Source of the DNA: Eledone cirrhosa
Taxonomy: Eukaryota
Assembly: GCA_964016885.1 (NCBI GenBank)
Contig: OZ024745.1
Location: forward strand, 85,312,001-85,376,000
DNA length: 64,000 nt
Direction of reading: 5' to 3'
Positions 59,954 through 62,665 of this stretch are shown piece by piece; the first letter of the stretch is position 1, and every line of letters begins with the position of its first letter. Position numbers and translations under genes: made by a program. Below the pieces are notes generated by a model that was not told where the DNA came from, ran no database searches, and saw nothing but the letters and a program-made list of their open reading frames with translations.

Positions 59954-62665
59954 CGGGGTAACAAATAATAGTTAAATGCAGTCCACTTAGGTAAAGTCCA
60001 GTTATGGTATTCCAGGTAGTGGATGATATTAACGCTTGGCTTGGTTTGACTCAACAAGGCGTTTCCATAGTGATGCTGCGGGTATGCCGTAATTCCTATG
60101 TTGTAAACACTTGGAGTAATAATAAATCAGGAAAGAAGGTTGACATGGTTTGCTATACAAAAAAGGTTTTTAATCTCATAGCTGACAATTGTTTCTCTGA
60201 ACTGGTAGGTCTAGAGATCGCTATTCGCTTATTTTCACGTTACTCGATCGCCAATACAAAATTATAACCAGTCAGATCTTCGGAGCATGCGAGAATGAAG
60301 AAAATACACAGGCAAGAAAAGAATATACAGGCTACTATATGAAGTAGTAATGGCATTCAATTAGAACAATAACAACAATTACAACAATGCTATTAATAAA
60401 TTATTTGAGGAGACCCTGACATTACTTAGGTGTGTGGGGGTGGGGGGTATAATATATCTAACGTTACGGCGTGTAAAACTAGCTGTGATGAGGCAAAAGT
60501 AAGAATTTGGCATGTACAGAGTATCGAAGTGTGTATCAATTTTAAATTATAAAGATAAGCCAGTGTTTACAGTCTTTCTTTTCATATTCAATAGTATACA
60601 TGAGTGGGACAACACTGTCAAAGCTAAATAGTTGTTGAGTTAATACAGAGGTTAACGAAGTAATATACGCATATATTTACACGCACACACACATACACAC
60701 ACACACACATAAACACACACACACACACACACACACACACACACACACACACACATATATATATATATATATACACATGCATGTGTACATAGACACATAC
60801 ATACACATCAATATACACTCGTACAAAAATATACATACATGCAAAAAGATAAGCGTGCTAATTGTAATTATGGCAAAAGGAAGGTAAAGTTACATTGTAG
60901 TAGAGATTTGAGAAAAACTAGGATTTAGGATCAAATGATGGCAGCAGCTGAGAAGGAATAAGTTTGTGGGTAGATGAGGTACTTACAGACATTTGTGTGG
61001 TATAGACTTGTGAAGGATATAGTATACTTAATGACTATATTTCTGTGGGTAGTAGGTATCCTAATTTAAAGCTATGTTGTGTTGGTTCGATTCACGGAGG
61101 TTTGAATCTTATGAATTTAGTGGCAATTCTATGTCTGCAGAAGATAGATCTTTCTAACTTATTGTTAAGTAGCCTTTTTACATTTTTGAGGATATACAAT
61201 AGCTCAAGATTACATAGCCCGCAGTGGGACATCCCTGTACTATAGGTTTTAGCAGCCGACAACTTCGATCAGTTGATACTGTAGTTAGTGCTGCTGTCCT
61301 TCAGTTCCCATATTTTTTTGGCGAGGGTTGTGGCACCCATAAGTGCACGGTTTTTCATTGAGTGTCTGTGCACATACCATCTTTTTTTAAAAGAACCCGC
61401 GGTGGATCCTATGTAATTCCAGGCGGAGTTACCCGAGATGACCGTGCACATGTACACTAGGCTCGAATCGAGACATCTGTTCGCCAATCGGCACCTATCT
61501 GGTAGGTAACAGTTACAGTTTGAGGCGCTATTTTGTGCAGCTTTTACATTCCTGTTTAGTACTCTGTTATAAGTGGGTTGTGATATATGCCCAATGGGGT
61601 TTTGCTGCTGCGCGTTTGTATGCGCTTGTGGTTGTGATGTTGTGATGTGTTTGTGCTTATAATTAGGTGCTACGTTATGTATAGGTGCAGTTGATTTACT
61701 AAAGATATTTCTGTGGTTGATCTTGCGTATGTGTGATTCTATGTTTGCTGCTGTTGAGTATGAGAGTTTTATAGTAGATCTATTGAGTATTTTGTGATAT
61801 CTATGCGAGATAGGGAAGTGTTTATCTATTAGTTTGTAGAGGGCAGTCTAGTTTTTATAGAGGAGTTGAATATTGGGTTGAACCATAGGTATTTTCTTTG
61901 TCTGTTTCTTCTATTGTTTCTTGGGTTTACGTTATTAGTGTTTTGGCCGTTTACTCCAGGTGTTACGTGTTTAACCCTATGTCTAGTCAAGTTATTTCTA
62001 TTATTATGTGAGCGGTTGGAGTAGTAATTACTAGGATTGTTTAAGTTGTCCTTATTCACTATATACTGCAGTTTATCTTTATGACCGGCCCTACGTAATG
62101 CTGCATTATAATAGTCAGCATGCTCGTTAAAGATTTCTAGGTTTGAGGATAAGCGGGATATTCGGAGGGATATACTACGTGCTATGGATCTAATTATGGA
62201 TTTGGGGTGATTTGAGTTGTAACTAATGTAGGCAAGATTTTCATTATTTTTGTGGAAAGGTTCTATTAATCCAGTATTTAGATTTAGAGTCACATCTAGA
62301 AAATTAACCTTCTTATGGTTTAGTTCGTAGGTAATACTTAGGCCTAGTTTTTTGAAGAATATTCTAATATTTTTTCTTAGTCTTTCCATGCTCTGGTTGT
62401 TTAGGTTCCTAGCTATAAGTAACGTGTCGTCCCTATAAATTCCTCCTTGGAGGTTACTGAATTCCTTATGTAGGTTGTGTGCTATGAATAGCCCCGCGAT
62501 ATCTGTGATTTGCGCAGAATCATTTGATCCCATTGTTATATCGAAGCTATTTATTCTATCCTTTCTTACCCAGTAGCTATTTTCAAATTTTATGATAGTC
62601 CTTCTAGCCGCTATTATTATTTCAATTTCATCAGATAGTCCTTCTAGCCGCTATTATTATTTCAT
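59954..62665 (-). mobile_element. Hydra-clade-like PLE (H5), 5'-truncated, frameshifted
   Basis: MGSNDSAQITD, GIYRDD, NFLDV, WFNP; CNCYLPDRCRLANRC; LVY..YIGSTAGSFKKRWYVH. Confidence 0.85.
60177..60289 (-). ncRNA. Non-canonical type I hammerhead (CCGAAGA core, 81-nt stem II domain)
   Basis: catGCT-CCGAAGA-TCTGA CTGGT...ACCAG t TCAGA-GAA-ACAATTGT-C-AGCtatg. Confidence 0.72.

What the first reader, a model, noticed from the sequence alone, without database searches (positions are those of the whole stretch)
60177..60289. Second CCGA-core hammerhead with an extended 81-nt stem II
Seen: stem II opens with TCTGA/TCAGA then CTGGT/ACCAG and contains a further GATCG/CGATC helix; the site is GUC. The partial tandem duplicate of this PLE (62666 onward) starts with sequence matching 60288, right at the 5' edge of the ribozyme. 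Inference: the large domain could be a protein (RT) docking site or a regulatory insert in the ribozyme, and the ribozyme edge may mark a template end or switch point.
Basis: partly seen in the sequence, partly recalled or inferred. Interest (0 to 1): 0.7.

Follow-up and report, generated by a model that had tools for sequence, protein, structure and literature searches.

The report
Long-armed hammerhead in Penelope retrotransposon
This is the predicted self-cutting RNA at the end of a Penelope-type jumping gene, with one arm stretched to 81 bases, a long-armed form found about 10,000 times in this genome; the arm likely binds a protein that controls the cut, while the element's copies end at two fixed sites further downstream and not at the ribozyme edge.

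Summary
The motif is real: a type I hammerhead on the minus strand (CCGAAGA core, 81-nt stem II, palindromic stem III, GUC site) in the terminal repeat of a young Penelope-like element (PLE) with all Hydra-clade motifs. Long stems II are a lineage trait: 10,225 genome matches against 8 for the control. Across 36 relatives the rod is 87% paired, with double changes at 12 of 21 pairs, but no single pair passes a tree-aware test.

The breakpoint idea fails. Only 1 of 243 3' ends, the window's own, lies at the ribozyme edge, and a 5'-end cluster there did not replicate (3 of 41, P=0.74). Copies end 62 or 229 nt past the predicted cut, one of each per two-ended insertion (69 mixed, 0 with both at the first site). 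Each end lies just before a similar hairpin, a likelier RT start signal than stem II.

670 of 823 sister copies lost the dimer palindrome but kept the arm. Best guess: the arm is a protein-bound control element (about 45%). Other notes of this scan reported such arms on other DNA. Verdict: new variant of a known kind; cleavage and function untested.

The parts
60177..60289 (-). Type I hammerhead motif of the element's terminal repeat (pLTR)
   Evidence: active fold 1.0 kcal/mol above the minimum-energy fold
60277..60283 (-). 5' core CCGAAGA (U4C variant)
   Evidence: CCGA and CTGA both common among long-armed relatives, 4,258 vs 5,967
60196..60276 (-). 81-nt stem II: basal helix, asymmetric internal loop, conserved GUA.U/UAGAC motif, central helix, GAGU/UAGC loop, 3-bp apical hairpin
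60184..60195 (-). GAAA core, palindromic stem III (CAATTG) and GUC site; predicted cut after 60184
   Evidence: palindrome self-duplex -6.4 kcal/mol
60169..60174 (-). ATTAAA, poly(A)-signal-like hexamer just 3' of stem I (AATAAA in many relatives)
   Evidence: function not tested
60049..60122 (-). End site A (about 60122, +62 from the cut) and the conserved hairpin that follows it (60117-60049)
   Evidence: 101 of 243 unique 3' ends; 8 pairs, each kept in 14-16 of 16 sequences, none covarying
59955..60121 (-). 167-nt 'tail' ending at site B (about 59955, +229 from the cut), abutting a (TA)n tract
   Evidence: 106 of 243 unique 3' ends; junction CCCG|TATA
61095..62590 (-). 5'-truncated, frameshifted RT-thumb/linker/GIY-YIG ORF remnant with CxCx5C linker
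   Evidence: 93-98% identical to an intact-frame natural copy
62634..62665 (-). Short re-copied ORF piece at the junction (local slip)
   Evidence: other copies align to the reference only from its position 33
62666..62953 (-). Internal duplicate of the 3' UTR that stops within the 5' strand of stem I; one-off template-switch piece
62972..63189 (-). Further internal piece of the endonuclease region (second jump)
63188..64000 (+). Inverted arm of the same insertion; runs about 224 nt past the window and ends at site A
   Evidence: 97.4%; L042 and L061
28220..28357 (-). The other CCGA hammerhead in the window, 95-nt stem II, in a distant PLE family (endonuclease region 31% identical)

Best explanation
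This is the pLTR hammerhead of a young Penelope-like retrotransposon with Hydra-clade motifs, and its 81-nt stem II is a lineage-wide, base-paired arm that likely binds a protein (probably the element's own RT-endonuclease) and so likely gates slow, protein-assisted self-cleavage, while copying of the RNA likely starts at two hairpin-marked sites 62 and 229 nt downstream. Shown: the motif, its copy number, the pairing pattern across relatives, the two fixed ends and their one-of-each pairing in head-to-head insertions. Inferred: RNA cleavage; protein binding; two RT starts primed from both sides of a (TA)n break by short TA microhomology; copying through an uncut or re-ligated (circular) ribozyme site. 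The window's duplicate ending at the ribozyme edge is most likely an ordinary one-off template switch.
For: 10,225 long-armed matches against 8 for the controls. In 36 group-A relatives, 21 pairs are 87% paired against 28-41% when slid, and 12 pairs show changes on both sides. Arm length stays 77-83 nt while the ORF-to-ribozyme distance varies from 537 to 996 nt. Loop letters are invariant or nearly so. Mean fold z is -1.75 for the insert against -0.47 and -0.45 for the flanks (63 clusters). Of 243 unique 3' ends, 101 are at A, 106 at B and 0 at the cut. Outer ends are A+B in 69 insertions and A+A in 0. Similar hairpins follow A and B. 9 of 13 upstream pLTRs run 5' past the cut and none stops at it. 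670 of 823 sister copies have a non-palindromic stem III (duplex -0.7 vs -6.4 kcal/mol) with the arm kept. Precedent: the anole Poseidon hammerhead cleaves only with the element's protein, is dispensable for insertion in vitro, and its two RT start sites define the tail (PMC11167929).
Against: No single pair passes a tree-aware covariation test (best structure-level E about 0.1; 7 same-branch double changes over 24 pairs). Against 16 distant families the insert's identity (0.56) is no higher than the upstream UTR's (0.55) and lower than the tail's (0.69). The six long-arm groups do not align with one another, and the loop motifs are found mainly in two of them. Hammerheads with short stems II are more numerous here (14,285 matches), and one 11-nt family lies behind a CxCx5C endonuclease, so a long arm is not needed by every family. 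There are no binding or cleavage data.
Confidence: 0.45

Rival explanations
1. The arm is a tolerated insertion. It only has to fold back on itself so that the core can form, and its loops are inherited rather than selected.
For: Insert identity to distant families is no better than that of the UTR. The six groups are unalignable. No pair is significant on the tree. Short-armed hammerheads are abundant.
Against: Length is fixed at 77-83 nt while the UTR drifts by hundreds of nt. Loop letters stay invariant while the helices change. The arm was not shortened in thousands of mobilised copies.
Confidence: 0.22
2. The arm makes an RNA-RNA tertiary contact with stem I, replacing the loop 1-loop 2 contact or the dimer, so that the ribozyme cuts as a monomer without protein.
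For: The largest sister subfamily lost the palindrome but kept a 2-bp stem III, the core and the arm. The first internal loop sits 7-9 bp from the core.
Against: No sequence complementarity to stem I was seen. Upstream pLTRs are copied through the site, which needs uncut or re-ligated RNA.
Confidence: 0.17
3. The arm is a host-factor or translation element for an uncapped or circular element RNA; the ORF start lies 281 nt after the cut.
For: Type I hammerhead cleavage drives cap-independent translation in some RNA viruses (PMC13725137, abstract and passages). The repeats within one insertion differ by 1.7% against 4.7-6.1% between insertions, as a circular template would give.
Against: After a cut the arm lies on the upstream product. 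Three or four short upstream ORFs lie between the cut and the ATG. The viral 'long' helix II is only 6-8 bp.
Confidence: 0.1
4. One reading: the arm docks RT, and the 5' edge of the ribozyme is a template end or preferred switch point.
For: The window junction lies in stem I. 10 of 38 nearby 5' ends fell in the 24 nt from the edge inward. Pooled post hoc over a 36-nt window, 18 of 79 ends lie there against about 11 expected.
Against: 1 of 243 3' ends; scan P=0.09; pre-set replicate 3 of 41, P=0.74; no cap G; the fixed ends lie downstream.
Confidence: 0.06

Closest known systems
Hydra-clade PLEs and their hammerheads (Craig et al. 2021, PMC8557442; seen: passages, section 11, supplement parts 1-2 of 59)
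   Same: RWK, DKT, CxCx5C linker, CxxC and CxH motifs, C-terminal GIY-YIG, (TA)n insertion, inverted 5'-truncated arm, tail at one end, type I hammerhead with short stem III.
   Different: All 26 Hydra rows of File S2 have a CTGA core and a stem II of about 26 nt or less; here CCGA and 81 nt. The unit is 3.57 kb (published: generally under 3 kb) and the tail 167 nt (published for PLEs: 30-40).
Poseidon PAc of the green anole (Frangieh et al. 2024, PMC11167929; seen: parts 1-2 of 4)
   Same: Two internal RT start sites that bound the tail, both DNA strands extended, hammerhead upstream of the start sites and apparently not defining copy ends.
   Different: In PAc the ORF starts inside the hammerhead and priming is non-homologous. 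Here the ATG is 281 nt after the cut, the two sites are 167 nt apart, and both show TA microhomology to the target.
Minimal/dimeric PLE hammerheads (Cervera and de la Pena 2014, PMC4209133; seen: parts 1-2 of 4)
   Same: Type I, small palindromic helix III, pLTR location, proposed circular intermediate.
   Different: Helix II there is 6-8 bp with a small loop. Here it is a rod of about 20 bp, and a 670-copy subfamily lacks the palindrome.
PLE-X1_sMoe hammerhead (File S2 of PMC8557442) and U4C core variant (PMC3088659, passages)
   Same: Precedents for a lengthened stem II (9 bp plus a loop of about 34 nt, flagged as deviating) and for CCGA (reported to lower in vitro activity but remain usable in a viroid).
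   Different: Single examples in unrelated elements; not a multi-helix arm kept across many families.

Membership tests
Type I hammerhead ribozyme | Core CUGANGA / GAAA / UH | tested here: met
   CCGAAGA (U4C, a known variant), GAAA, GUC (PMC3088659 passage)
Type I hammerhead ribozyme | Three helices with stem I open | tested here: met
   Constrained active fold -24.7 vs minimum -25.7 kcal/mol; stem I arms differ yet pair in relatives (read by eye)
Type I hammerhead ribozyme | Match to Rfam hammerhead models | tested here: not met
   No hit to E=1 at this place; expected if an 81-nt arm exceeds the models (inference)
Type I hammerhead ribozyme | Self-cleavage at the predicted site | not testable with these tools
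   Needs an in vitro assay or raw RNA reads
Hydra-clade PLE | RWK motif and DKT instead of DKG | tested here: met
   VRWKAY and KADKTS in natural copies L092 and L104
Hydra-clade PLE | C-terminal GIY-YIG with CxCx5C linker, CxxC and CxH, no CCHH | tested here: met
   CNCYLPDRC, VYMC..YIG, CGLC, CRH; definitions
Hydra-clade PLE | Insertion into (TA)n | tested here: met
   The commonest A and B junctions run into TA repeats, 71 and 72 copies
Hydra-clade PLE | Generally under 3 kb (a tendency in the paper, not a strict criterion) | tested here: not met
   Unit is 3,573 nt with a long 3' UTR
Hydra-clade PLE | Phylogenetic placement with published Hydra proteins | not tested
   The tree held only this genome's copies; Pfam gave no hit
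Canonical PLE insertion structure | pLTR tandem, inverted 5'-truncated arm, tail at one end only | tested here: met
   13 of 14 unit starts follow a pLTR; 69 A+B and 0 A+A outer ends
Dimer-dependent PLE hammerhead | Palindromic stem III | tested here: inconclusive
   Met in the window; absent in 670 of 823 sister copies
Non-LTR retrozyme | Short non-coding tandem unit | tested here: not met
   The unit encodes an RT-endonuclease of about 800 aa

The most novel reading that the evidence does not exclude
A new hammerhead subtype in which an 80-100-nt stem II arm replaces palindrome-driven dimerisation as the switch. The element's own protein binds the arm and allows monomeric cutting and re-ligation into a circular RNA. 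Two RTs then copy that circle from twin hairpins on both sides of a TA break, which gives the pLTR, the inverted arm and the one-sided tail in one reaction.
Probability: 0.2. Interest if true: 0.8.

Novelty: new variant of a known kind. Interest (0 to 1): 0.5.

Why it matters
The role of PLE hammerheads and the origin of pLTRs, inverted arms and tails are open questions. This family offers natural controls: long versus short arm, CCGA versus CTGA, and palindrome versus no palindrome among thousands of young copies. It also shows a strict one-A-one-B end rule that matches the two RT start sites seen in vitro for another PLE. Rfam misses this long-armed motif, and the published Hydra table lists none, so thousands of such ribozyme motifs per genome are probably uncounted.

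Tried and rejected
1. Ribozyme edge as a breakpoint hotspot: rejected.
2. Cut site as a 5' template end: 0 of 38 and 2 of 41 nearby 5' ends lie within 3 nt of it; one starts at the first base after the cut, which chance can give.
3. Cap-derived G at 5' ends near the edge: 1 of 12.
4. Rfam: no hit. Pfam: no hit for this ORF.
5. RNAalifold alone recovered only 7 pairs. My first pair count was mis-registered by one column in the outer pairs and was redone.
6. Tree-aware covariation: no significant pair.
7. A loop E/S-turn reading of GUA/GA (motif recalled, not from a call) fits poorly, because one extra variable base lies before the closing pair. A kink-turn reading (also recalled) fails, because the tandem is AG/AG rather than GA/GA.
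8. The whole 346-nt 3' end is not unusually stable (z +0.63).
9. The 20-nt-arm CCGA family could not be tied to an ORF; the nearby endonucleases belong to other insertions.
10. Expression: no RNA holder listed; the contigs laid cannot show ends.
11. Lunse et al., the paper on PLE hammerhead variants, is not in the library and was seen only as a citation; it may already show long stems II.
12. Four of 40 group-A rows with large indels were dropped before alignment.

Full report
Observation. The minus strand of 60289-60177 carries a type I hammerhead as described: CCGAAGA core, 81-nt stem II with the three helices named, GAAA, palindrome CAATTG and a GUC site, with the predicted cut after 60184. 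The arm folds better than 199 of 200 shuffles, and the catalytically open fold costs 1.0 kcal/mol. Rfam does not see it. The duplicate at 62666 matches from 60288. The other CCGA hammerhead in the window is at 28345 (-) and also has a long arm of 95 nt.

Host element. A 171-nt query gave 2,016 candidates; the 40 scored yielded 42 matches at 99-100% identity. Natural copies give a 3,573-nt unit with an ORF of about 800 aa. It carries RWK, DKT, the RT motif YRDD, a CxCx5C linker, a GIY-YIG endonuclease and CxxC/CxH motifs, the Hydra-clade features of Craig et al. 2021. Copies sit in (TA)n. Placement with published proteins was not tested, and Pfam gives no hit. The window copy is 5'-truncated and frameshifted. 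It has two internal jumps and an inverted arm that ends about 224 nt beyond the window.

The long arm is a lineage trait. Pattern counts with a 70-100-nt spacer were 4,258 for CCGA (control 3) and 5,967 for CTGA (control 5); with an 8-38-nt spacer, 14,285 (control 11). These require the CAATTG palindrome, so they are lower bounds. CpG decay may turn some CCGA into CTGA (inference). In the fetched loci, 291 long-armed motifs formed 63 clusters in six groups that do not align with one another. Where an upstream endonuclease could be linked, the arms belong to at least two clades, 31-43% identical to this one at the protein level.

Pairing evidence. I aligned 36 of the 40 clusters in the window's group, dropping four with large indels. 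The 21-pair structure is 87% paired against 28-41% when slid, and 12 pairs change on both sides. Loop letters GUA.U/UAGAC and GAGU/UAGC are invariant or nearly so. Arm length is 77-83 nt while the ORF-to-ribozyme distance varies from 537 to 996 nt. Inserts fold better than their flanks: mean z -1.75 against -0.47 and -0.45, and z below -2 in 23, 7 and 7 of 63. Against this, a tree-aware test found no significant single pair, because the sample holds few independent lineages, and insert identity to 16 distant families (0.56) equals that of the UTR and is below that of the tail.

Breakpoints. Of 243 unique 3' ends, 101 lie at site A (+59 to +66 from the cut), 106 at site B (+225 to +229), one at the ribozyme edge (the window's own) and none at the cut. 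In 96 copies anchored downstream, 10 of the 38 nearby 5' ends fell in the first 24 nt of the ribozyme. That cluster was chosen post hoc (scan P=0.09) and showed no cap G. A pre-set replicate in 90 copies of sister subfamilies gave 3 of 41 (P=0.74). A weak, broad excess near the edge (18 of 79 in 36 nt, about 11 expected) is not excluded. The window junction shows 2-3 nt of microhomology (read), as ordinary template switches do.

How insertions are built. Among 148 insertion clusters, 69 had outer ends A+B, none A+A, and three B+B. Those three are upstream parts of full-length copies, and two of them end in A at the far side. The rest were one-sided, internal or cut off by the locus edge. Related groups also show two preferred ends. 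Both sites are followed by TA-like bases and a similar hairpin: four pairs, a two-base bulge on the 3' side, then three or four pairs. I checked this after a lead from note e1-10328804. It matches the anole element, where two internal RT starts define the tail and both strands are extended (PMC11167929). Here the tail is 167 nt rather than 30-40. These hairpins are therefore likelier RT start signals than stem II (inference).

Role of the cut. Thirteen of 14 unit starts, found in 20 loci, follow the same read-through junction at B. Nine of those 13 upstream repeats run past the cut and none stops at it. Repeats within one insertion differ by 1.7% (23 pairs) against 4.7-6.1% between insertions, and no column separates upstream from downstream repeats. 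This fits a circular or uncut template; gene conversion or repeated jumps are not excluded. Of 823 close sister copies, 670 have CAAATG in place of the palindrome. Their predicted dimer duplex falls from -6.4 to -0.7 kcal/mol while the core and arm are kept. A perfect dimer is thus not needed for spread.

Mechanism. The arm is most likely a protein-contact element that gates slow, assisted cleavage (0.45), by analogy with the protein-assisted anole ribozyme. No step at the RNA level is shown.

Known versus new. All 26 Hydra rows in File S2 of PMC8557442 have CTGA cores and stems II of about 26 nt or less; one non-Hydra row has about 53 nt. U4C and a U-U pair at 10.1-11.1 are known variants (PMC3088659 passages). 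Searches showed no description of 80-100-nt arms in PLE hammerheads in their listings or in the parts I read. Also read: PMC4209133 parts 1-2 of 4, bioRxiv 10.64898/2026.07.22.740005 part 1 of 5, and passages of PMC6765202 and PMC7229834. Lunse et al. (PMC5785218) and bioRxiv supplements could not be seen and may bear on novelty. Earlier notes of this scan report the same kind of arm elsewhere in this genome and in others; they are unchecked AI notes, not support. Verdict: new variant of a known kind, interest 0.5.

Noticed in passing
window 1508-3522: Five identical short hammerheads (CTGATGA, 14-nt stem II) in ~466-nt direct and inverted repeats; retrozyme-like; Rfam HH9 hits below the gathering score.
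   Followed up: no
window 28220-29427 (-): Second PLE family with a CxCx5C endonuclease and a 95-nt, possibly branched stem II; its copies end at about +107-138 or +300-338 from the cut.
   Followed up: partly
window 10688-17507 and 22457-24133: Large inverted-repeat element with an 839-aa ORF and a 558-aa ORF in homologous DNA, both with weak RVT_1 hits; likely another PLE clade.
   Followed up: no
window 40104 (-), 33147 (+), 21587 (-): Further hammerhead-like matches with 18-27-nt stems II; the first lies downstream of a GIY-YIG remnant at 41342-42145.
   Followed up: no
L213, L219, L228, L252, L190, L179 and others: The distance between the two end sites tends to rise with stem II length (11 nt: 68; 20 nt: ~105; ~62 nt: ~80; ~80 nt: ~167; ~95 nt: ~190); few points, confounded by descent.
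   Followed up: partly
window 60169-60174 (-) and relatives: AATAAA or ATTAAA follows stem I in most long- and short-armed families, so the cut would separate the ORF from a poly(A)-like signal.
   Followed up: no
L371-L382, L326, L328, L339: A homogeneous 670-copy subfamily with a non-palindromic stem III and intact core and arm.
   Followed up: partly
G000:C1:211.9-213.0 Mb: Five identically spaced head-to-head pairs, probably host segmental duplications; counted once.
   Followed up: no
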